Source of the DNA: a virus
Taxonomy: Duplodnaviria; Heunggongvirae; Uroviricota; Caudoviricetes
Strand: one strand, 5' to 3'
IMG/VR virus record: IMGVR_UViG_2563366947_000002
Length of the DNA: 64,000 bases
Of the stretch, positions 40,055-50,360 are shown in pieces. The first letter of the stretch is position 1. Each line of letters starts with the position of its first letter. The notes under the pieces were generated by a model. That model was not told where the DNA came from. It was given only the letters and a program-made list of their open reading frames with translations, and did not search any database. The position numbers and the translations under genes were made by a program.

Positions 40055-43000
40055 TTAGGCCGCATCGGCGATTATTTTACGCAGTTCATCTACCGAGTAA
40101 CGCGTAGATACCATCCATGCAGGACGGTCAAAGTTCACATCAGCAACCGGGTTTGCTTCAAAATTCCAGAAACGCCCGCCAATCTTCTTAATCGCGTCTT
40201 TGGCGTTCCGTATTGTCGAGGAACCTGGTTGGTCGGCAATGAGATAAACCGCGCCAACGTCCTCGCTGACGCTCCACCAGCGCCCGCGAACACGCGCCTT
40301 AGCGCGAATCGGCTTATCATTAACCACAATGATATAGTCATCATTCGCCGCTTCATCAGCTCTGGCTTCAGCCACTGCCGCCTGCTCTTCTCTTTTGCTT
40401 TCAGCCTGCTCAAGCCTTTCCGCGATCTCTGATTCAGTGGCCCCGCCGTTTTTCAGCGATACATAGTCCTGCCACGTTGACGATTTGAGCGTATCCGGCA
40501 ACTCATTCACATAGTCGCCGTCTTTCAACTCACGGGCGCGGCGGGTAGCCATTTCTACCAGGCGATTAACAGAAACAGCATCAGCAAAATCGTCCTTACT
40601 AATGTGTTTTTCATCAAATGCATTGATGACAGCCCCCACCTTAATCCACTGTGCTGCCGGTGATTCCAGGGGGTTATCAGCCTGAACAATGGCGAGTTTC
40701 GCTCCATCTACCCCATTATTCGCCAGCTGTTCCAATGCCGCCCATCCATCTGCATCACTGAGTGATTTATATTGCTCAAACAATGCATCGCGCCAGGCCA
40801 CCAGCGCAGAACGTGTTTTTTCGATCTTCGCCTTAATTTTCGCGATCTTGACCTGATTAAACATCCGTTCAATATCATCGATATTGCTAAAGGCTTTCAT
40901 CCTGCCCTGGAATAAACGGTATGCCAGCACGGTCCTCCAGAATGATTCCAGACCTTCTCCGGACGGTTTGCGGAACAAGCTAAGAATATCTTCAGAAGTG
41001 ACTTTATTAAGCGAACGACCTGACAGACCACGCCCAGCCATCCAGTTTTCGAACTCCTGGGCAACATCATCCATCGTTGCCTGTGCGCCCCATGCCTGCA
41101 TTCCCTGGATGTAATCATACCCATACAATGCCTGGAGGAATCCCTCGCCGTCCACGATATTCAGCGGGTTATCACTGGCTTGTATTTTTGCCACTTCACG
41201 CTTCAGCGCCTCGTCGTTGCCATCAGGATATATCCATCGCTCAGGTGCTATATCCGATGCTCGCCCGATTTTTTGGCCTATCACGCCATCATAGGCCGAT
41301 GACAGCGCGATCTGACCATCATCTGTGCGATATGCCCAGTATTTAATAGCTGACCCACCGCCCCATGCATTACCAGGTTTACCAGCAATAACATTCATTA
41401 CCCCATTGCGAATAGCATCATAGAACTGATCGCGAGTAAGTATTGTTGATAGCTGGTGGCACTGAACACCTCGCGCAGCCGTTGCGCGCGATTCAGCTAC
41501 CCCCTCTTCAAAAGTTACCGCTTCAATCACAGAGTCAAACGGCAATGTAACGATTGACCCCGGTGCTCGAGCGTAACGACTTGCTCTATCCAGCCAGGCG
41601 ATACGGCAGAGGTATTGTGCTTTTTCACCGTCAATTTTTTCCACCCGGACAATCGCTGTTGTTTCGCGATCATCAATGACTGCACGGTAATAACTACCTT
41701 TATGCAACAGGATATTCTTGTCAGTGCGCATATATTCCTGTGGGTTCTGAATAACATCGATACTGATATCCAGCACACCAGACTTAATAGCGCGCTCCAC
41801 ATCACCACGAGAGCGTTTCATTATGGTATCCGCGTCTTTTGCCCTGGTGATCGCAAACCGCAGCACCCGCGCACGTTTTCTGTAGCTACTCAACTGCTCA
41901 AGCGCGTATTTTTGCCCATTCCTGTTCGTACCCGCTTTTATCAGGTCGTCAAGATTTCGCTGGTAATACTCTATCTGTTCCATCGCGCTTTTCAGTTCTG
42001 TCTCCATCATGCCGATATCTTTTCCGGCGGCGTTTGCCGCTTTCAGGTAGATATCGAGAGCATTGTTGGCCTCGCGCTGTGCTTTCAGTTTCAGACGTTC
42101 TTCACGCTCTTGCGCCTGGCGAGCCATGATTGCGCGGCGTTCTTCCGGGTTTGCCGCCAGCATAATGGCGCGTTCATCAGCATCATCCGCATCACCATTG
42201 GCGATCTCTGACATGTCGGAGGTCATCACCATCTTGATCCAGTCTTTCTTACGTTTAAGCGTATCCAGACGGAAGTCATCGAATGTGCCTTTGCCACAAT
42301 AGTAGTGAACATTGACCTTTTCTTGCGGTGAACCTACGCGCGCACCGCGCCCATTTCGTTGGTCGATACTGGCTGGTGTCCAGGGTAGTGTCAGGTGGTG
42401 GATATCGGTTGTCCCGATGTGCAGGTTAATACCTACTTCAGCCTTCTTGTTACAGATTATGATGCGCGTGCGACCTTCGTTATAGTCGGCGGCAATACCT
42501 TCCATGCCCTCAAGGCCAGCATCATTTTTAGCGGAGAGATAATCCTCATATTGGGCAAGTTTGCTGTAGTAGGTTTCCCATGCCCCTTCTTTGTATTCAC
42601 CGTTTTTGTTTGGAGTAGGTTCGGTCGGCTTATTCACCTTCTTCAGTTTGATGCCACCAGCCTGGCTAACTGTCGTCGCATTGATAATGCCAATCTCCTG
42701 CTCCGGCATTTGCAGTGCACTGGCGATAATACGGCGCAGCTTCTGGTGCTGGGCTTTTTCATCAATAAAGACGATCTGCTTACCGTTCTTCAGACCTTCA
42801 CGAAGATTTTCGATCAGCGCGGCATACTTCGGCGGGATGGGGTGCGATACCTGCTGCATATCAATGCCGGCAGCCGCAATGGCCTTCAGTATTTCAGCTT
42901 CCAGTTCAATGCTGGCACGTATTTCAACATGCGTCGGATGTTCACTAAAAGCGGTCTTCACTACCTTGCTGGTACGCGTACTGACCAGCCCGCCAGCGCC

Positions 43001-46000
43001 GTCTTCCTCGGCCTCATCAACATCATCTGCCACTTTACCGCCAGCTACTTTTGGCAAGGCATCAGCAATAGCTTTTACCTGGTCTGCAAGCTCAACGGGG
43101 AACTGGAATGTAATCGCACTGGCATACAGATCCGGGTCTATAGCAACCTTATCCATGTCACGGATGATGGAGAAGATGAAATCATCCGGTTTGTCGTTAG
43201 TGATATGCCCGTTTTCATCGACTGTCAGCTCATCATTGCGACTTAACTCCTGAGCACGCTTACGAAGCTCTTCATAAGCAGTCTCCTGCTCCCCTGTCAT
43301 CGGGATCTGCAAGGTGTTCTCGATGATGTCGGGAATTTTAACCGTCGCTCCGACATCTGCAGCAGTCTTCAGAGTGGCCCAACGATGGAAAATACCACGC
43401 AGGCCGTCAAGGTTCTGGAAGCCCACCAGCCCCTGCTTCTCTTCCACTTCCCCGGAAATTTTCTGGACCTGAACTGTGGCTGTTTTGCCAAACACACGAA
43501 CGAAATCATCAGGCGTAATGATGCCCATACGCATCCACTCTTCCTGCGGAATGACAGTAGACAGCATGTTGAAGGCATCAATCGGACTGTTCACCAGCGG
43601 TGTTGCCGTCAGCATGACTACACCACGCCCGTTGTTGCGTTTCATCATGTACGCAGCTTTTACAGCCATGTCGCGGGCCATCTTGGATACTGCCGGGTTA
43701 GGCAAATATGCCAGTTGTCCCGCTTCACGCCCGGCATTAAAGGAGTTGCGGTAGTTATGCCCCTCGTCGGCAATCACGCTATCGAAGTTCATATCCTCAA
43801 AGTACGGGATATTTTGCTTCTTCGTTGTACCGGTATTCGCGGCCTGATCCTTAATCTTGTTCTTCTTCTGCGCATCACGGTGTTTACCGGACGCCAGGTC
43901 AAGACGCCCCATTTCCACAGCATTAAAGACAGCTTGCTGTGAGTTCTCCTCGATGGTTTTTTCTCGTAGCGGGATAGACGCGAATTGTTCTTTTGTCATG
44001 ATGACCGTTCGCCAATTTGACGACGGGATCATGTTCATACGCTGAACGATAACGGCGCTGGAGGACTCTTTCACAACATTTCTGGTAAGAGGCTGCCCGT
44101 TACTGTCGAGGCGTGGTTCGCCATTTTCATCAAGCACCGGCGCGGTCAGAATATTTCCGCTGTCATCACGAACTTCATCCAAACCGATAAACATCATATT
44201 GGCGAAGGCGTCAGCACTGTAGAAACTCTGTGCCTCGTGATACCAGTTCTGATAAACCGCCTTCGGAACAACAATACACGTGCGTTTAGTGCGACCTGTT
44301 TCGAAGTTATACGCCTCAAGCGCAAGCGCGGTCGTGGTTTTACCCAGCCCGGTACCAAATCCCATGATGCCGCGCCCATCTTCTGACAAGCGCCGAACTT
44401 CTTCATTCTGATAAGTAAGAGGAATGCGCTTTCCACTAAGCCCTTCCAGGCCAAGCGGTGCGTCAGAATGCGTGAACGGAATGAAACCATTGAATGCGTC
44501 GTTATACTCGCGGGCTATCTGATCAGCCTGCGGGTGAGTGCGTAACCAGTCGTTAAAACTAACTTCCAGTTGAGCAATTTTATCCAGGTACTCGTTAGCG
44601 TTCTGCCCACGCGGTTTAACACCGTTCAGGTAGTTTTCTAACTGGTTCAGGAAGCCGTCTTTATTGTTGGCCTTCTTGAACTCATTCCCGTTTTTGCCGT
44701 TTACGGTTCGTAGCTGATAGCCGGTAAATACCCCGTCCTTACCTTCGTAATCGTCCGGAGATACCAGAATGCCATCGACGACCTTCAGATCAGGTTCAGT
44801 GTACTTAAACTCGTCATAGCCCTGCTCTGCCAGGAACTCTTTTATCAAGCGGCGATCCAGCCAGCGGGCATTCAGATTAACGGTGACTTTATTTAGTGGC
44901 GTGAAAATACGTTTCTCTTCGATTTTCGCCAACTGACGCTCAAAGTTCGCTTTCTGCTCACCTGTTGACGCATCACGCCAGCCCATCAGCAATGCTGTTT
45001 TGGTTGCAATATCGCCGCTGGTGGCGCGGTCCATCGGCAGCAGGCAGCCATACCCATCAATAGCGATATCATCAAATTTCGCCAGGAATTCAAGGGCCGC
45101 GTCGTCGTCCTCTGGCAGTTCACCAGCAAACGCCTCACGAAAGTCTCCCAGCGTTATAGGATTAAGGGCTACATCACTGAAAAGATGTGCTATCACTTGT
45201 TCAGGACGGGTAAAGTCAATACCGGCAGCACCATCCGTTACATCAAGTCGCCCTGCCAGAAGGTCAGAAGTGGAACCATCCTGTTTCACATTGCCAGTGA
45301 ACGTCATCCAGTTTTTAGCGCCAGCTTCAGCAAGCCCATTCAGCTTAATCGCGTGCGGTGGTCCATACTTCGCAACTTCTGCTGCCGCCAGGCGGGATGC
45401 ATCTGCCAGTTTGTCATCAACGTTCGCCCCCAGGTTACGCAAATCAAGTGCCTTGTTGATCAACTGCCCTATCAGCGCACCGCGCATAACGCGCTCTCTG
45501 TCTTTTTCTCGCTGCTTGTCAGCAAAGCGAATCATTGCTGCCACTTCATCACTGACAACCGATGGATAGTCGGACGCGATCGCCGATATCTGGTCCCATG
45601 ACAAAGCCAGAATCCCGTTTGTTGACTGGAACGCGATCTGCAGATCGCCAAACGTCGAAACACCATATCGACTTACATCAAGCGCGGAGGATTTGGTTGT
45701 CGTGTCCTTAACCCATTTCAGACCATCAAACTCATGCCAGATACCGCCTACAAGGCGTTTATCGCCCACTTTCGCGCCCTGCCATGCCTGAGTAGTTACG
45801 CCGAGCAAATCCCAATTGATGCGACTATCAAAGCGACGAGATAGCGCGGTTTTCATCGACTCATTGGATACACGACCGTCTTTTTTCACTACCAGGGTAT
45901 TGCGGAAGCTGGTGCGTTCCATGTCGCCGTAAACAAATCGCTTCCCTTCGGTTGTAAACCATTTCCCTTTGAGGAAGGTATCCCAAAGGACGTTTGCCGA

Positions 46001-46891
46001 TTTGAGCGTTGCATCATCCGTGTCGGGGATCATCTCCAGGAAGGTTTCCGGGTGTTTACGCAATACCCATACGTCCACCACGGTATCTGTACCGGATTCG
46101 CTGAACGTACCAGAAGGCATACGATGTGCGCCCAAAAATTCCGCTTTACGGCTGACTTTATCGCGCAATTTTTTGTATTTCGTACCATCGGTCATGCCAT
46201 TCGGCACCACCAATACAATTAGTCCACCAGGCTTAACCTTGTCGATCGTGCGCAACACAAAGTAATTGCCAACGTTCTTCTCGTTTGCATATGCCGGATC
46301 AAGCCCGGCAACGCCGGAACGCCCTTCACCAAACGGTACGTTACCAACAGCGTGGTCATACATTGCGTCTTTCGCCGCCAGTGCCTCAAACGCCCCGATA
46401 TTCACATCGTCTTCCGGGTGCAAAAGCTGGTTTATTCGACCAGAAATCGGAGACAGTTCGGCGCTGGTCATTATCATGCCCTGCCGTTTTGTCTCCTGGA
46501 AAATACCTGTGCCCGCTGATGGTTCCAGTACGTGCCCGCCATCAATACCGTAGTCAGCAAACAGATCCCATATACCTTCAGCCATAAACTGTGGCGTGTA
46601 GTATTCGTATTGGCTGCCCTCACCATCTGTCAGGCCACCTTCACCGGTATACCCGGCAAGAATCTGACGTTGTTCGTCAGTTAATTTCGCCCCATCGAAG
46701 CCGGGCGGAAGGGAATTAAGAAGATTTACTGCGGCGTTGTTTGCTGCCCGGCGTGTTTTCTGAATACTGACGCCATCGGCTTTCCTGACGCCAAAGGTCG
46801 CAACAGCACGTAATTTATGCAACCGACTAACAATCTCAATCAGTTCGCCTAAGCTGGAGGCTTCACTGATTGAATGAAGTAGTTTGTCCAA
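40055..46891 (-). CDS. darB: giant N6-adenine methyltransferase / SF2 helicase fusion protein (DarB-like antirestriction protein)
   Basis: About 2,278 aa from TTG at 46891 (GAGGGGG SD); MTase motif I VLEPSAGTGIF and motif IV GNVPFGEG near N-terminus; helicase motifs GLGKTT, VIADEGHNYRN, MLTATPLVNSP, QRNGRGAR; ORF-track N-terminal extension to 47080 runs into the IS. Confidence 0.6.
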   Translation of the reverse strand: MDKLLHSISEASSLGELIEIVSRLHKLRAVATFGVRKADGVSIQKTRRAANNAAVNLLNSLPPGFDGAKLTDEQRQILAGYTGEGGLTDGEGSQYEYYTPQFMAEGIWDLFADYGIDGGHVLEPSAGTGIFQETKRQGMIMTSAELSPISGRINQLLHPEDDVNIGAFEALAAKDAMYDHAVGNVPFGEGRSGVAGLDPAYANEKNVGNYFVLRTIDKVKPGGLIVLVVPNGMTDGTKYKKLRDKVSRKAEFLGAHRMPSGTFSESGTDTVVDVWVLRKHPETFLEMIPDTDDATLKSANVLWDTFLKGKWFTTEGKRFVYGDMERTSFRNTLVVKKDGRVSNESMKTALSRRFDSRINWDLLGVTTQAWQGAKVGDKRLVGGIWHEFDGLKWVKDTTTKSSALDVSRYGVSTFGDLQIAFQSTNGILALSWDQISAIASDYPSVVSDEVAAMIRFADKQREKDRERVMRGALIGQLINKALDLRNLGANVDDKLADASRLAAAEVAKYGPPHAIKLNGLAEAGAKNWMTFTGNVKQDGSTSDLLAGRLDVTDGAAGIDFTRPEQVIAHLFSDVALNPITLGDFREAFAGELPEDDDAALEFLAKFDDIAIDGYGCLLPMDRATSGDIATKTALLMGWRDASTGEQKANFERQLAKIEEKRIFTPLNKVTVNLNARWLDRRLIKEFLAEQGYDEFKYTEPDLKVVDGILVSPDDYEGKDGVFTGYQLRTVNGKNGNEFKKANNKDGFLNQLENYLNGVKPRGQNANEYLDKIAQLEVSFNDWLRTHPQADQIAREYNDAFNGFIPFTHSDAPLGLEGLSGKRIPLTYQNEEVRRLSEDGRGIMGFGTGLGKTTTALALEAYNFETGRTKRTCIVVPKAVYQNWYHEAQSFYSADAFANMMFIGLDEVRDDSGNILTAPVLDENGEPRLDSNGQPLTRNVVKESSSAVIVQRMNMIPSSNWRTVIMTKEQFASIPLREKTIEENSQQAVFNAVEMGRLDLASGKHRDAQKKNKIKDQAANTGTTKKQNIPYFEDMNFDSVIADEGHNYRNSFNAGREAGQLAYLPNPAVSKMARDMAVKAAYMMKRNNGRGVVMLTATPLVNSPIDAFNMLSTVIPQEEWMRMGIITPDDFVRVFGKTATVQVQKISGEVEEKQGLVGFQNLDGLRGIFHRWATLKTAADVGATVKIPDIIENTLQIPMTGEQETAYEELRKRAQELSRNDELTVDENGHITNDKPDDFIFSIIRDMDKVAIDPDLYASAITFQFPVELADQVKAIADALPKVAGGKVADDVDEAEEDGAGGLVSTRTSKVVKTAFSEHPTHVEIRASIELEAEILKAIAAAGIDMQQVSHPIPPKYAALIENLREGLKNGKQIVFIDEKAQHQKLRRIIASALQMPEQEIGIINATTVSQAGGIKLKKVNKPTEPTPNKNGEYKEGAWETYYSKLAQYEDYLSAKNDAGLEGMEGIAADYNEGRTRIIICNKKAEVGINLHIGTTDIHHLTLPWTPASIDQRNGRGARVGSPQEKVNVHYYCGKGTFDDFRLDTLKRKKDWIKMVMTSDMSEIANGDADDADERAIMLAANPEERRAIMARQAQEREERLKLKAQREANNALDIYLKAANAAGKDIGMMETELKSAMEQIEYYQRNLDDLIKAGTNRNGQKYALEQLSSYRKRARVLRFAITRAKDADTIMKRSRGDVERAIKSGVLDISIDVIQNPQEYMRTDKNILLHKGSYYRAVIDDRETTAIVRVEKIDGEKAQYLCRIAWLDRASRYARAPGSIVTLPFDSVIEAVTFEEGVAESRATAARGVQCHQLSTILTRDQFYDAIRNGVMNVIAGKPGNAWGGGSAIKYWAYRTDDGQIALSSAYDGVIGQKIGRASDIAPERWIYPDGNDEALKREVAKIQASDNPLNIVDGEGFLQALYGYDYIQGMQAWGAQATMDDVAQEFENWMAGRGLSGRSLNKVTSEDILSLFRKPSGEGLESFWRTVLAYRLFQGRMKAFSNIDDIERMFNQVKIAKIKAKIEKTRSALVAWRDALFEQYKSLSDADGWAALEQLANNGVDGAKLAIVQADNPLESPAAQWIKVGAVINAFDEKHISKDDFADAVSVNRLVEMATRRARELKDGDYVNELPDTLKSSTWQDYVSLKNGGATESEIAERLEQAESKREEQAAVAEARADEAANDDYIIVVNDKPIRAKARVRGRWWSVSEDVGAVYLIADQPGSSTIRNAKDAIKKIGGRFWNFEANPVADVNFDRPAWMVSTRYSVDELRKIIADAA

Positions 46892-46899
46892 AGGATTAC

Positions 46900-48340
46900 C
46901 CCCTCTAAACCGTAAAAATTCCGCTATGCGGTACGGTTGAGAGGGTATGGAGAATGTTATTTTCAGCGAAAACCGCCGAGAACCCTCGCCCAGTGCTGGC
47001 GGGGAGGAACGGCGGAAAAGCCCAAAGGGCTTTAAAAAAATCATTACGGTGTTAGCATAAAAGCCTGTATCAATGAGCAATGACTATGTTAAGAGCGACA
47101 AAAGTACGTATATACCCCACTCCTGAACAGGCTGAATTTCTCAACGCCCAGTTCGGTGCGGTGCGTTTTGCGTACAACAAAGCTCTTCACATCAAAAAAC
47201 ATGCTTACCAGCGACACGGAGTAAATTTAAGTCCGCGTAACGATCTGAAACCGTTGTTGTCTGTGGCCAAAAAGTCCCGCAGATATGCCTGGCTCAAAGA
47301 GTTTGATTCAATGGCATTGCAACAGGCGGTAATTAATCTTGATGTGGCATTTTCCAACTTTTTTAATCCGAAGCTGAAAGCCCGGCTTCCGACTTTCAAG
47401 AGAAAGAACGGCTGGCAATCCAGCTATCACTGTGTCGGGATTAAGGTTCTGGATAATGCCATCAAAATCCCCAAACTTTCCCCGATTGAGGCACGCCTTC
47501 ATCGTGAACTTCATGGAAAGCTGAAAAGCATCACTATCACTCGTTCTGCGACGGGGAAATATTATGCGTCGCTACTCTGCGATGATGGCATGGAAACGCC
47601 AGCCAGACCTTCCATGATATCCCGCGTGACGGGGATAGATATGGGATTATCGCACTATGCCATCAAGTCCGATGGGGTAAAAGTTGCTAACCCTCGCCAT
47701 CTCATCAATGCCAGCCGTAATCTGCGACGCAAACAAAAAGCGTTATCTCGCAAGCAAAAGGGAAGCGCAAATCGCAAAAAGGCCAGAATCCGTCTGGCAG
47801 CGTTACACGAACGGGTAGCCAGTGCCCGTGCCGATTTCCAGCACAAGTTATCTCGCGCAATTGTTGACGAAAACCAAGCGGTAATTGTGGAGACACTGAA
47901 AAAAGCCAACATGATGAAAAACCACAATCTGGCGAGAGCGATAGGTGATGCCAGCTGGCACAGTTTCATCGCAAAGCTGGAGTACAAGGCGATGGAAAAA
48001 GGCGTTCACCTGGTAAAACTCGACCAATGGTTTGCCAGTTCGAAAACGTGCCATTGTTGTGGTTACAAAATGCCGGAAATGCCACTTCATAAACGCATCT
48101 GGCGATGCCCGGAATGCAGTATTGAACATGATCGCGACATCAATGCGGCACTCAATATCCGGCAAAAAGGAATACTGGAACTACAGGCGGCGGGACTCGT
48201 CGTTTCTGCCCATGGAGGCCAGCGTAAATCCGTCATACAGACGGTTGCGGCCTAAGAAGTGGGAAGCCTCGCCCGACAGGGCGGGGAGCAGTCACGGGGA
48301 CGATACTACCGTCAAAATCACATACTCCCCATAGTTTGCC
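46900..48340 (+). mobile_element. IS200/IS605-family insertion sequence carrying tnpB only; boundaries approximate
   Basis: Intact tnpB flanked by subterminal imperfect hairpins (CGCC...GGCG near 46986-47003 and CGCCC-gaca-GGGCG near 48270-48287); no tnpA. Confidence 0.6.
47080..48255 (+). CDS. tnpB: TnpB (OrfB) RNA-guided endonuclease-type transposase accessory protein
   Basis: 391 aa; MLRATKVRIYPTPEQ N-terminus, RuvC-like GIDMG, zinc finger CHCCGY...CPEC, C-terminal HDRDINAALNI. Confidence 0.85.
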   Translation: MTMLRATKVRIYPTPEQAEFLNAQFGAVRFAYNKALHIKKHAYQRHGVNLSPRNDLKPLLSVAKKSRRYAWLKEFDSMALQQAVINLDVAFSNFFNPKLKARLPTFKRKNGWQSSYHCVGIKVLDNAIKIPKLSPIEARLHRELHGKLKSITITRSATGKYYASLLCDDGMETPARPSMISRVTGIDMGLSHYAIKSDGVKVANPRHLINASRNLRRKQKALSRKQKGSANRKKARIRLAALHERVASARADFQHKLSRAIVDENQAVIVETLKKANMMKNHNLARAIGDASWHSFIAKLEYKAMEKGVHLVKLDQWFASSKTCHCCGYKMPEMPLHKRIWRCPECSIEHDRDINAALNIRQKGILELQAAGLVVSAHGGQRKSVIQTVAA

Positions 48341-48370
48341 TACTTATTAACCCATGACCGGGAGAAAAAT

Positions 48371-48856
48371 ATGGCAAACATTGAACCTCGCTGGCTAATT
48401 GAAGCCCGTAAGCACATTGGCCTGACTGAAATAAAAGGCGCTAAACACAACCCTGAAATCGTTCAGTTCTGGCGCGACATCAAGCGCGGCGGAATTAAAG
48501 ACGATGAAACGCCGTGGTGCGCAGCATTTGTCGGTGCAATGCTGGAACGTGTAGGCATCCGCTCAACAAGATTTGAGTCGGCAAAATCCTATCTGGATTG
48601 GGGCGAGAAATTAGATACACCGGCATACGGATGTATCGTTGTATTTACCCGCGTAGGCGGTGGGCACGTAGGCTTCGTTGTCGGACGCCGCGCCAATGGC
48701 GATCTGCTTGTCCTGGGTGGGAACCAGGGGGATGCGGTTAATATTCGCGCATTCCCAACATCAAGAGTGTCTGGCTATCGCTGGCCTGCTGGCGAACCAC
48801 GCAATACCGCTCTGTTACCAGTCGGAGACGCAGCAACCTCAACTAATGAGGCATGA
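48371..48856 (+). CDS. NlpC/P60- or CHAP-like putative peptidoglycan hydrolase (tentative)
   Basis: 161 aa; TPWCAAFVGAML cysteine and GGGHVGFVVG histidine contexts. Confidence 0.4.
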   Translation: MANIEPRWLIEARKHIGLTEIKGAKHNPEIVQFWRDIKRGGIKDDETPWCAAFVGAMLERVGIRSTRFESAKSYLDWGEKLDTPAYGCIVVFTRVGGGHVGFVVGRRANGDLLVLGGNQGDAVNIRAFPTSRVSGYRWPAGEPRNTALLPVGDAATSTNEA

Positions 48857-48879
48857 AAAAGCCCCGGCCAGGCCGGGGC
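48856..48879 (-). terminator. minus-strand terminator hairpin
   Basis: GCCCCGGCC-a-GGCCGGGGC followed on minus strand by TTTTT. Confidence 0.5.
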
Positions 48880-48887
48880 ATCACGCT

Positions 48888-49088
48888 TCAAGTCACCATC
48901 CAATCATTACCGATTATATCAGCCGTCGATAAATCAACTTCCCGGATCTGGAGTCCATTAATACAAAACCATCCGGTAGTAGAGTAATTATCAGGCCAGG
49001 CCCATACACCAACACTCCATGCTTTACGGCGGCACACTTCAGCCTGTCCTTCCCTGATTTTTTTTACCGCCTGCATGATGTCCATCAC
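48888..49088 (-). CDS. small DUF2829-like protein (split C-terminal module of antirepressor paralogue)
   Basis: 66 aa; AEVCRRKAWSVGVWAWPDNY ... NDWMVT aligns with C-terminus of 11797..12738 product. Confidence 0.4.
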   Translation of the reverse strand: MMDIMQAVKKIREGQAEVCRRKAWSVGVWAWPDNYSTTGWFCINGLQIREVDLSTADIIGNDWMVT

Positions 49089-49792
49089 TCACCTCCCCAA
49101 CCGATCACCTGGAATTGCCCCATTTTGGGGTGATACCAGCGTTTTCCTCGGTGTTCAGCCTCCGACATCATCCGGTTAAAAGCATTCATGAAGGGAGATA
49201 AGGCCACGATGGAACGACGCGACAATACCCCCTCTGGAGTTAAAAACTCATGTGTATCGGTGGGAATCCGGTAAGCGTTGACAAGGTTGCGACATTTGGC
49301 TTCAGTCAGGCCGCATTTCGCCGCCAGCTGGCGGTAGCCAATGTAACCATCTGGCATATTGCCCTTCTTGATTTGCTCGACGGTTTCAGCGACCTGGCTA
49401 ACCTTTGACTCAACAGCATGAAGCCGCTTTTGCTGCTGAACTGCATTTGCAGCCATTGCGGCGATCATCTCTATTTCGGTCAACGGCTGGCGTACTTGTT
49501 CTTCCAGTTCGCGCCAGCGGTCCACCAGCCGGGCGGTGAATTCCGGAGAGAGCTGCGCAACGACAATGATACTGTCACGCTTGCCTTGCTCGCCTTCGAA
49601 GACGTAGTGTGAATTTTTAACTTTAAATCCTAAGTTATTGATATTTTCGGAAACCTCCATTGGAGGAAGTGGAATAACACCTGATTTACTCAAGCGTTCA
49701 ATAGTGCGTTTAACGTTATCCGGGCGACTTCCCACCAGCTCCGCGATCTCAATGCTGGTCATTGATGGCTTTTCAAGAATGCAGATATCCAT
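49085..49792 (-). CDS. antirepressor-like protein (paralogue of 11797..12738)
   Basis: ATGA overlap with icd-like ORF; MTSIEIAELVGSR... and central region near-identical to first copy. Confidence 0.45.
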   Translation of the reverse strand: MDICILEKPSMTSIEIAELVGSRPDNVKRTIERLSKSGVIPLPPMEVSENINNLGFKVKNSHYVFEGEQGKRDSIIVVAQLSPEFTARLVDRWRELEEQVRQPLTEIEMIAAMAANAVQQQKRLHAVESKVSQVAETVEQIKKGNMPDGYIGYRQLAAKCGLTEAKCRNLVNAYRIPTDTHEFLTPEGVLSRRSIVALSPFMNAFNRMMSEAEHRGKRWYHPKMGQFQVIGWGGE

Positions 49793-50015: not shown

Positions 50016-50360
50016 TAGTTACGGCCTCATTCGTAGGTTTAACAACCTGCGCCCCCGCTGCTAAACGGGTGGCAGGACGTGACGGGGTTAGCAGACTGGC
50101 ACGAATGAAACCAGCAGGCCGAAGCCTCCCCATCACGCCCCACCATAATTCGGGCGTAACGTGGTGTTACGGACACAAAAATACCGCAATATCGGATATC
50201 TGCGGTTGTCCGCATTCGTATTCAGGCTGCTAAACCCGGTCGCAGAATTTGCTACGACGGCATGAATATAAGCCTGAAAACATGGAAGATCAACTAAAAA
50301 TTTCAGCAATGGATGACTTCAGTCGATGATGCAGATCATACATTCCGATTTAGAAACAGC

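What the first reader, a model, noticed from the sequence alone, without database searches (positions are those of the whole stretch)
46900..48340. IS200/IS605-family tnpB-only element inserted within about 100 bp upstream of the darB-like start
An intact TnpB gene with flanking subterminal hairpins sits between the darB-like gene and the divergent 48371 gene. The insertion separates the darB-like start and its Shine-Dalgarno from whatever promoter lay upstream, so the antirestriction gene may be silenced, polar-affected or driven from an IS-borne outward promoter. TnpB elements also encode an omega/reRNA overlapping the tnpB 3' end, so a guide RNA may be present near 48200-48320.
Basis: partly seen in the sequence, partly recalled or inferred. 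Interest (0 to 1): 0.55.

Follow-up and report, generated by a model that had tools for sequence, protein, structure and literature searches.

The report
tnpB-only insertion sequence upstream of darB
A 1.3-kb tnpB-only mobile element of a well-known family sits in the promoter region of a phage-plasmid's anti-restriction gene; it is an ordinary member of its kind, though its guide RNA is aimed at sibling plasmids that lack the element.

Summary
Comparison with phage D6, which has the uninterrupted site, puts the insert at 46967-48295: 1,329 bp, no target duplication, 3' of TTCAG. It lies 75 bp from the darB-like TTG start (46891) and 75 bp from the CHAP/TIGR02594 gene ATG (48371).

It has same-strand subterminal hairpins and an intact TnpB (389 aa from 47086, D187/E271/D353, zinc finger) that aligns full-length with ISDra2 TnpB. 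It has no tnpA. An omega-RNA scaffold at 48185-48295 is supported by strong covariation and by suppressed synonymous variation. Its guide would be 48296-48315, which with TTCAG is exactly the empty site.

The insertion splits the only sigma70-like promoter candidate for darB, leaving the -10 on the left and the -35 on the right. No replacement outward promoter was found. Silencing is unlikely, because darB is intact in every element-bearing contig and under purifying selection.

The same element plus about 0.2-0.4 kb of linked flank sits as a patch in an otherwise different D6-like backbone. This fits TnpB-driven homing, or plain recombination.

Verdict: a new member of a known kind (ISEc46-related IS200/IS605, tnpB-only), of modest interest.

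The parts
40055..46891 (-). darB-like anti-restriction gene (methylase/helicase), intact, 2278 aa, TTG start preceded by GAGGGGG
   Evidence: ORF list. D6 annotation 'defense against restriction, similar to P1 darB' with the same start. Translation has no internal stop.
46959..46964 (-). GAAAAT, the -10 hexamer of the candidate sigma70 darB promoter, left stranded in the left flank
   Evidence: In D6 the scan finds TTGACG-16 nt-GAAAAT, 9/12, on the darB strand. The insertion point lies between the two hexamers. The site is absent from the window scan.
46962..46966 (+). TTCAG target / presumed TAM, immediately 5' of the left end (core TCAG)
   Evidence: Junction with the D6 empty site. Five independent insertion sites of the GAGAA-type relatives all have (T/A)TCAG.
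46967..48295 (+). The insertion sequence: 1,329 bp, tnpB-only IS200/IS605-family element, no target-site duplication, no terminal inverted repeats
   Evidence: D6 empty-site alignment. Relatives match end to end at 81-95%.
46978..46982 (+). GAGAA, the left-end internal 'guide' pentamer 5' of the hairpin foot, which covaries with the target tetranucleotide
   Evidence: GAGAA goes with TCAG (5 independent sites). GTAAA goes with TTAG (22 independent sites).
46973..47015 (+). Left-end subterminal structure: hairpin CCTCGCCC/GGCGGGG (46984-47006) nested in the outer stem CCGCCG/CGGCGG
   Evidence: Pattern search. DNA fold -13.7 kcal/mol, z -2.2.
47086..48255 (+). tnpB, 389 aa (alternative upstream ATG at 47080 gives 391 aa). 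RuvC D187/E271/D353 and CxxC...CxxC, numbered on the 391-aa form
   Evidence: Pfam and NCBIfam. Full-length alignment to ISDra2 TnpB 8H1J/8EXA, E 3.5e-77. Motif positions. The exact 389-aa product is on record in 139 blocks of assemblies.
48185..48295 (+). Omega-RNA (reRNA) scaffold. Helices: 48185-92/48198-205; 48209-13/48259-63; 48217-20/48249-52; 48224-25/48247-48; 48230-34/48240-44; right-end hairpin 48267-74/48279-86
   Evidence: RNAalifold on 77 relatives: 19 of 40 pairs have compensatory changes. 97.5% of cells are paired against 35-53% when slid, and 322 double-change cells against 16-82. 4-fold-site diversity falls from 0.58 to 0.33 from codon 367 on.
48296..48315 (+). Presumed guide segment of the omega-RNA (flanking phage DNA GGGGACGATACTACCGTCAA). 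It contains a 15-bp imperfect palindrome and the complement of the -35 hexamer
   Evidence: Position immediately 3' of the conserved right end ...GAGCAGTCAC. Identical sequence follows TTCAG in D6, in pE2863-2 and in 11 IMG/VR contigs. That it functions as a guide is inferred from the family.
48310..48315 (-). TTGACG, the -35 hexamer of the candidate darB promoter, now 1.35 kb away from its -10
48371..48856 (+). CHAP / TIGR02594-family peptidoglycan-hydrolase-like gene, co-oriented with tnpB, with no terminator-like site between them
   Evidence: Pfam CHAP. TIGR02594 143 bits. No + strand terminator found.

Best explanation
This is a non-autonomous IS200/IS605-family insertion sequence, related to ISEc46, that carries tnpB but no tnpA.

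Shown:
- It occupies 46967-48295, in the divergent intergenic region between darB and the CHAP gene of a D6-like phage-plasmid.
- It is inserted 3' of TCAG, with no duplication.
- It has same-strand subterminal hairpins.
- It has a left-end pentamer that covaries with the target.
- TnpB is full-length and catalytically complete.
- The tnpB 3' end overlaps a structured RNA that ends exactly at the right end.

Inferred from the family (ISDra2; Karvelis 2021 PMC8612924; Mears 2025 PMC11870625):
- A Y1 transposase supplied in trans inserted it as single-stranded DNA.
- TnpB binds the omega-RNA, whose 3' guide is read from the flank (48296-48315).
- The complex therefore recognises TTCAG + GGGGACGATACTACCGTCAA. 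This is the uninterrupted site of sibling D6-like plasmids and of the donor after excision.
- Cleavage followed by repair from an element-bearing copy keeps the element in place and spreads it (homing, or gene drive).

Side effect, by consensus match only: the insertion splits the -35 from the -10 of the only sigma70-like darB promoter candidate. darB nevertheless remains intact and under selection, so it is probably still expressed by a route I could not identify.
For: - Empty site in D6, no duplication. 102 PLSDB plasmids hold the uninterrupted site across the 301-bp D6 query. 11 IMG/VR contigs carry the exact 27-nt junction.
- Hairpins.
- Target and left-end covariation, TCAG/GAGAA against TTAG/GTAAA, over 27 independent sites.
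- TnpB domains, alignment to solved ISDra2 TnpB, catalytic residues.
- tnpB dN/dS 0.09 between two alleles.
- Omega-RNA covariation and controls. Synonymous-site suppression begins at about 48184. Single-sequence fold z -3.3.
- No TnpA in the window. Relatives of 1763-1772 bp carry a divergent 145-aa Y1 transposase.
- Promoter split. P1 has an analogous annotated 'predicted sigma 70 promoter PdarB'. Both hexamers are invariant in four diverged D6-likes.
- Patch signature. L113 and L120 follow the haplotype of the element-free plasmid pE2863-2 up to 46655 and again from 48713. In between they carry the element (0-1 mismatch) plus four linked flank variants of the element-bearing haplotype.
Against: - No RNA or cleavage data. 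The guide, the TAM and TnpB activity are inferred.
- Rfam has no matching family.
- No promoter-like site for tnpB or the omega-RNA reaches the consensus threshold.
- No TnpA is in the window, so current mobility is unknown.
- The promoter is a 9/12 consensus match, and its spacer varies from 15 to 18 nt among D6-likes.
- D6-like plasmids are mosaic generally, with hypervariable blocks at 49600-49730 and 50030-50240. The patch could therefore arise by ordinary recombination without TnpB.
- In the single-sequence fold the guide pairs with strands of the first helix. This could limit guide availability.
Confidence: 0.85

Rival explanations
1. The element is an inert relic. Lacking tnpA, it cannot move, and TnpB and the RNA are decaying passengers with no current activity.
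For: - No TnpA in the window.
- No consensus promoter for tnpB.
- The family leaves many fragments, for example orphan 38-nt right-end remnants.
Against: - The ORF is full-length and all catalytic and zinc-finger residues are present.
- tnpB dN/dS is 0.09 between the window and L083 alleles.
- All covarying helices can form in the window sequence.
- The identical allele occurs in several backbone variants.
Confidence: 0.1
2. The main biological effect is regulatory. The insertion knocks out or rewires darB expression, and perhaps expression of the CHAP gene by read-through from tnpB. The lineage was selected for that effect, not for anything TnpB does.
For: - The only sigma70-like candidate is split, and no replacement is found.
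- tnpB is co-oriented with the CHAP gene, with no terminator between them.
- The element-bearing allele is widespread in draft assemblies.
Against: - darB is a 6.8-kb gene that remains intact in all ten element-bearing contigs.
- darB dN/dS is 0.078 between two element-bearing lineages. This argues against silencing.
- The promoter is only a consensus match with a variable spacer.
Confidence: 0.2
3. The TnpB here is a domesticated RNA-guided DNA-binding regulator (TldR-like) acting on the darB promoter region, not a transposon nuclease.
For: The guide would cover the spacer and -35 of the candidate darB promoter (48296-48315).
Against: - The RuvC D/E/D triad and the C-terminal zinc finger are intact.
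- The gene lies within complete left and right ends.
- In the element-bearing plasmid the TAM and the target are separated by the element. The plasmid's own copy is therefore not a target.
Confidence: 0.03
4. The element-free state is derived. D6 and the other plasmids lost the element by precise excision, rather than the window lineage gaining it.
For: - Precise excision is the normal chemistry of this family (established knowledge).
- The element-bearing allele is common in draft assemblies.
Against: - All 102 PLSDB D6-like plasmids matched by the empty-site query, and 11 of 12 IMG/VR contigs, are element-free, including diverged ones at 85-87% identity.
- The element-bearing haplotype has its own linked flank variants.
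- The direction of the event does not change what the element is.
Confidence: 0.05

Closest known systems
ISEc46 and related enterobacterial tnpB-only IS200/IS605 elements (IS1341-type), e.g. the copy in P1-like phage RCS47 and copies on IncI1-type plasmids such as ColIb-P9 NC_002122
   Same: - Same length (1,329 bp in RCS47).
- Same ends (CGAAAA...GAGCAGTCAC), hairpins and TTCAG target.
- tnpB only.
- 81% (RCS47) to 90.8% nucleotide identity over the full length.
   Different: No copy closer than 90.8% exists in complete E. coli genomes or PLSDB. By the usual ISfinder identity rule (my own knowledge) it would count as a distinct element or isoform. It also sits in a different place, the D6-like darB promoter region.
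ISDra2 of Deinococcus radiodurans (TnpA + TnpB + reRNA; structures 8H1J, 8EXA, 8BF8)
   Same: - TnpB aligns over residues 5-381, E 3.5e-77, with the catalytic D/E/D and zinc finger conserved.
- The RNA scaffold overlaps the tnpB 3' end and ends at the right end.
   Different: - ISDra2 carries its own tnpA and uses the TTGAT target/TAM (literature).
- Here there is no tnpA and the target is TCAG/TTCAG.
- Almost the whole supported scaffold (about 110 nt) lies inside the coding sequence; only 40 nt follow the stop codon.
Autonomous relatives with divergent tnpA (IS605-type), e.g. L090, L003, L004, L006, L091-L093
   Same: - Same ends and hairpins.
- Same tnpB, 84-88% amino-acid identity.
   Different: They are 1763-1772 bp and carry a 145-aa Y1 HUH transposase between the left end and tnpB. 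The window element lacks that roughly 440 bp.
[quoted passage not shown] 2025, PMC11870625)
   Same: - An IS200/IS605 element on a plasmid replicon whose guide matches the element-free allele.
- Natural contigs show the element plus short linked flanks placed into another backbone.
   Different: That work is experimental, on model plasmids. Here the replicon is a low-copy phage-plasmid and the evidence is only a sequence signature.

Membership tests
IS200/IS605 insertion sequences | Insertion without target-site duplication and without terminal inverted repeats | tested here: met
   D6 empty site ...TTTTCAG|GGGGACG... against the window ...TTTTCAG|CGAAAACC...GCAGTCAC|GGGGACG.... The ends are not inverted repeats of each other.
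IS200/IS605 insertion sequences | Subterminal imperfect palindromes (hairpins) at both ends on the same strand | tested here: met
   CCTCGCCC-N-GGCGGGGAG at 46984-47006 and 48267-48288, both on the + strand, with 0 expected by chance. DNA folds. Compensatory changes occur in the right-end hairpin across relatives.
IS200/IS605 insertion sequences | Insertion 3' of a specific tetra- or pentanucleotide that is recognised through an internal left-end guide sequence | tested here: met
   5 independent sites have (T/A)TCAG with left-end GAGAA. 22 have NTTAG with GTAAA. This is a C:G to T:A compensatory change. That TnpA recognises the target this way is inferred from the IS608 model.
IS200/IS605 insertion sequences | Y1 (HUH) transposase TnpA encoded by the element | tested here: not met
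   No TnpA-like sequence in the 64-kb window (best tblastn E 0.36). Only 119 bp separate the left end from tnpB. The element is therefore filed as a non-autonomous, tnpB-only member. Relatives carry tnpA.
TnpB RNA-guided nucleases | HTH/WED-REC plus RuvC domain with the D-E-D triad, and a zinc-finger (TNB) domain | tested here: met
   Pfam PF12323, PF01385, PF07282. NF040570 at 338 bits. Alignment to 8H1J. D187, E271, D353 and CHCC...CPEC.
TnpB RNA-guided nucleases | Omega/reRNA encoded at the tnpB 3' end, ending at the right end with a flank-derived guide | tested here: met
   Conserved structure with 19 covarying pairs. 97.5% of cells paired against at most 53% when slid. Synonymous suppression from about 48184. 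The right-end terminus is invariant while the flanks differ. Transcription itself was not tested.
TnpB RNA-guided nucleases | TAM-dependent, guide-dependent cleavage of double-stranded DNA | not testable with these tools
   Needs a plasmid-interference or in vitro cleavage assay with the TTCAG + GGGGACGATACTACCGTCAA target.
TldR-type nuclease-dead TnpB regulators | Loss of RuvC catalytic residues, C-terminal truncation, and loss of transposon ends | tested here: not met
   The catalytic triad and zinc finger are intact. Complete left and right ends are present.

The most novel reading that the evidence does not exclude
In nature this TnpB and its guide RNA may act as a gene drive, or as a weapon between sibling phage-plasmids. 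The guide matches the uninterrupted darB promoter region seen in D6, pE2863-2 and 11 IMG/VR contigs. On co-infection the element-bearing plasmid would cut element-free D6-like genomes. It would then either convert them, which would explain the ~2-kb patch of element plus linked flank variants in a pE2863-2-like backbone, or eliminate them. Each conversion would also rewire darB regulation by splitting its promoter.
Probability: 0.35. Interest if true: 0.5.

Novelty: new member of a known kind. Interest (0 to 1): 0.3.

Why it matters
The finding mainly serves annotation. It gives exact ends, target, guide and RNA scaffold for an element that pipelines label only 'TnpB family protein'. It also shows that the neighbouring anti-restriction gene is not obviously inactivated.

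The modest wider value is a natural test case for TnpB-mediated homing on a phage-plasmid. There is a defined empty-site target that many sequenced relatives share. There is also a recombinant backbone with co-converted flank markers. Lastly, the insertion point lies between the -35 and -10 of a candidate promoter, so spread of the element and regulation of darB could be measured together.

Tried and rejected
- Rfam scan of 46000-49500 at E<=1: no family. The RNA had to be supported by a purpose-built alignment.
- Look-up of the 391-aa product from ATG 47080: not on record. The 389-aa product from ATG 47086 is, and relatives lack the first ATG. 47086 is therefore the likelier start.
- P1 late-promoter motif (LPpro AAGTGACTAGTGTTAAATT, read from the P1 record): no match in the window at up to 3 mismatches.
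- The 15-bp palindrome in the guide region does not recur in the window, so it is not a repeated operator.
- A long-range helix (48056-60 with 48288-92) and a helix 48080-83/48169-72 were predicted by RNAalifold. They show only wobble changes or many unpaired cells, and synonymous diversity upstream of 48184 is normal. Both were left out of the scaffold.
- Independent insertion as the explanation for the 5%-diverged allele at the same site in L083: rejected. That allele is a mosaic of the window allele and of plasmid-borne paralogues.
- Literature: no paper joins TnpB with a TTCAG TAM. The P1 genome paper is not held. The D6-like plasmid population paper does not mention the element.
- No outward promoter or hybrid promoter at the left end. 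By eye, the hexamers that would serve as a new -35 (GAGGGT, AGGGTT, CGAGGG) match TTGACA at 2 positions at most.

Full report
**1. What is there**

The window region matches Escherichia phage D6, a P1-like plasmid prophage, at about 98-99% on both sides of a 1.3-kb stretch that D6 lacks. Aligning the two window junctions with D6 gives an unambiguous break. D6 reads ...GGAGAATGTTATTTTCAG|GGGGACGATACTACC.... The window reads ...TTTTCAG|CGAAAACCGCC... on the left and ...GGGGAGCAGTCAC|GGGGACGATACTACC... on the right.

- The insert is therefore 46967-48295, 1,329 bp, with no target-site duplication.
- The darB-like gene (40055-46891, minus strand, TTG start as annotated in D6) starts 75 bp to the left.
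- The CHAP/TIGR02594 gene (48371-48856, plus strand) starts 75 bp to the right.
- darB translates without an internal stop, 2278 aa.

**2. Anatomy of the element**

Two hairpins of the form CCTCGCCC-N-GGCGGGGAG lie on the same strand, at 46984-47006 and 48267-48288. None is expected by chance. The left one is nested in an outer stem, with a DNA fold of -13.7 kcal/mol.

The single ORF encodes TnpB.

- Pfam finds the HTH_OrfB_IS605, OrfB_IS605 and Cas12f1-like TNB domains.
- NCBIfam guided_TnpB scores 338 bits.
- It aligns over residues 5-381 with the solved ISDra2 TnpB (8H1J, 8BF8, 8EXA), E 3.5e-77.
- The RuvC residues D187, E271 and D353 and the CHCC...CPEC zinc finger are present.
- The likelier start is ATG 47086 (389 aa). 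That exact product is on record whereas the 391-aa one is not, and relatives lack the upstream ATG.

No TnpA-like sequence exists anywhere in the window. Relatives of 1763-1772 bp (L003, L004, L006, L090-L093, L097) carry about 440 bp more between the left end and tnpB. In L090, the one examined, that stretch holds a divergently oriented 145-aa Y1 HUH transposase. The window element is thus a non-autonomous, tnpB-only member.

**3. Target and left-end recognition**

I compared 27 independent insertion sites among relatives from genomes and viral contigs.

- Elements whose left end has GAGAA just 5' of the hairpin foot sit after (T/A)TCAG (5 sites).
- Elements with GTAAA sit after NTTAG (22 sites, plus two odd cases).

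The C-to-T change in the target goes with a G-to-A change in the pentamer. This is what the IS608 model of cleavage-site recognition by an internal guide predicts (established knowledge). The right end is ...GAGCAGTCAC in nearly all relatives, whatever follows it.

**4. The guide RNA**

I aligned the last 260 nt of 77 non-identical relatives. RNAalifold predicts 40 pairs, 19 of which have compensatory double changes.

Counting on the named structure gives:

| Measure | Observed | Partners slid by 1-3 columns | Column shuffles |
|---|---|---|---|
| Cells paired | 97.5% | 35-53% | - |
| Cells with changes on both sides | 322 | 16-82 | about 90 |

No shuffle of 500 reached the observed covariation score.

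The supported helices lie between 48185 and 48286 in window coordinates. The last one is the right-end hairpin.

Independent support comes from synonymous sites. Pairwise diversity at 4-fold sites is 0.585 over codons 1-330 and 0.576 over codons 331-366. It drops to 0.325 over codons 367-389 (48184-48252). That places the 5' limit of the constrained RNA near 48185. It also argues against the two longer-range helices, which show no real covariation.

The window sequence alone folds to -59.9 kcal/mol, z -3.3. Rfam has no family for it.

By analogy with ISDra2 (PMC8612924), the guide is the 16-20 nt after the right end, GGGGACGATACTACCGTCAA (48296-48315). Transcription and processing were not tested. 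No consensus promoter for tnpB or the RNA was found.

**5. What the guide is aimed at**

TTCAG followed by that 20-mer is exactly the uninterrupted site.

- It is present in D6 and in pE2863-2.
- It is present as a perfect 27-mer in 11 IMG/VR contigs, against one filled contig.
- 102 PLSDB plasmids hold the uninterrupted site across the 301-bp D6 query, 81 of them at 99% identity or more.
- No PLSDB or complete E. coli record holds the filled site.
- The filled allele is nevertheless not rare in draft assemblies. The exact 389-aa TnpB is indexed in 139 blocks, and all ten places read show the same darB | element | CHAP ... repL context and the same junctions.

**6. Signature of spread**

Among those contigs the element is identical (0-1 mismatch in 1,329 bp) while the backbones differ.

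- L113 and L120 have 24-26 differences from the window in darB up to 46655. They then have none until 48466 (L113) or 48713 (L120), apart from one mismatch inside the element in L113.
- L119 differs in another block.

A multiple alignment with the element removed shows the structure of L113 and L120. They follow the haplotype of the element-free plasmid pE2863-2 at 46367, 46382, 46637 and 46655, and again at 48713 and 48855. Between those points they carry the four flank variants linked to the element (46736 G, 46835 C, 46898 A, one A fewer at 46913).

So a patch of about 2 kb, the element plus 0.2-0.4 kb on each side, sits in a foreign backbone. That is the pattern expected from a break at the empty site repaired from an element-bearing template, as in the plasmid gene drive shown experimentally by Mears et al. 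(PMC11870625). Ordinary recombination in these mosaic plasmids would give the same pattern, so this is suggestive and not proof.

A second allele at the same site (L083, 95% identical) is a mosaic of the window allele and of plasmid-borne paralogues. This indicates gene conversion among family members, not a second insertion.

**7. Effect on darB**

In D6 the only sigma70-like site on the darB strand within the 151-bp intergenic region is TTGACG-16 nt-GAAAAT. It scores 9 of 12. The 500-bp scan found 3 sites against 0.6 expected, and the other two lie inside darB.

- The insertion point falls in the spacer, 2 nt from the -10. The -10 (46959-46964) stays with darB, and the -35 (48310-48315) is moved 1.35 kb away.
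- The window scan finds no promoter-like site between darB and the element, or facing outward from the left end.
- The P1 record annotates a comparable 'predicted sigma 70 promoter PdarB' 56-86 bp upstream of darB.
- Both hexamers are invariant in four D6-like plasmids as diverged as 86%. The spacer, however, varies from 15 to 18 nt because of the G-run at the insertion point.

Against silencing:

- darB is full-length in all ten element-bearing contigs.
- dN/dS over its first 2.8 kb is 0.078 between the window and L083.

On the other side, tnpB and the CHAP gene are co-oriented with no terminator-like site between them. Read-through into that gene is possible.

**8. Comparison and verdict**

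The element belongs to a family present in 788 of 5,426 complete E. coli genomes and in 500 PLSDB plasmids. This includes the ISEc46 copy in P1-like phage RCS47 (81%, same length, same TTCAG target). The nearest full-length copy is 90.8% identical.

Every defining feature of IS200/IS605 that could be tested is met, except an element-borne TnpA. This makes it a tnpB-only, non-autonomous member.

It is a new member of a known kind. Interest is modest: the anatomy is textbook. The points worth keeping are the promoter-splitting position, the guide aimed at sibling phage-plasmids, and the co-conversion patch.

Noticed in passing
window 47836-47913 (tnpB codons 251-276, around catalytic E271): A second dip in synonymous variation among 80 relatives. 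2-fold sites fall to 0.23 against 0.39 overall, and 4-fold sites to 0.49 against 0.585. It could be an internal promoter, an antisense element or a gene-conversion hotspot. No explanation was tested.
   Followed up: no
L110 1501-1538 (NZ_CP042894.1) and many other plasmid records (the seven listed rows are H57-H63): Perfect 38-nt matches to the right end of the element (48258-48295), with nothing annotated. In the one record inspected it is an orphan right-end remnant. It abuts a frameshifted IS3 transposase and lies upstream of a hok/gef gene.
   Followed up: partly
plasmid hits H66-H71, H79, H88-H92, H126-H131: On conjugative plasmids, relatives of this element repeatedly lie next to 'antirestriction protein' and DUF1380 genes, which is probably leading-region context. 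Here the element lies next to the darB anti-restriction gene. This may be coincidence, or a preference for DNA that is single-stranded on entry.
   Followed up: no
L106, L107, L108 aligned with D6 (A3, columns about 100-110); equivalent to window 46964-46966 | 48296-48300: The more diverged D6-like plasmids vary exactly at the TAM and guide-proximal bases. pSa1423 has TTCAC instead of TTCAG, pEC361_3 has two extra bases, and FWSEC0003 has one G fewer. Such variants would probably escape this guide. They also change the spacer of the candidate promoter.
   Followed up: partly
window 48299-48313: GACGATACTACCGTC is a 15-bp imperfect palindrome (6 of 7 pairs). It lies in the spacer and -35 of the candidate darB promoter and within the presumed guide. 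It occurs only once in the window. It may be an operator for an unknown regulator.
   Followed up: partly
window 49600-49730 and 50030-50240: Dense blocks of substitutions and indels among otherwise near-identical D6-like contigs. They fall in the Rha-type antirepressor and icd-like region. These are hypervariable or recombinationally exchanged immunity-region segments.
   Followed up: no
window 48180-48315: In the single-sequence minimum-energy fold, the presumed guide (GGGGACGAU...CCGUC) pairs with the strands of the first scaffold helix (48189-48208) instead of staying free. This may be chance for this particular flank, or it may reduce guide availability.
   Followed up: no
L002 2508-3837 (phage RCS47, FO818745): The P1-like phage RCS47 carries a 1,329-bp ISEc46 copy of the same family just after repL, also inserted after TTTTCAG. 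P1-like and D6-like phage-plasmids have thus each acquired members of this family.
   Followed up: partly
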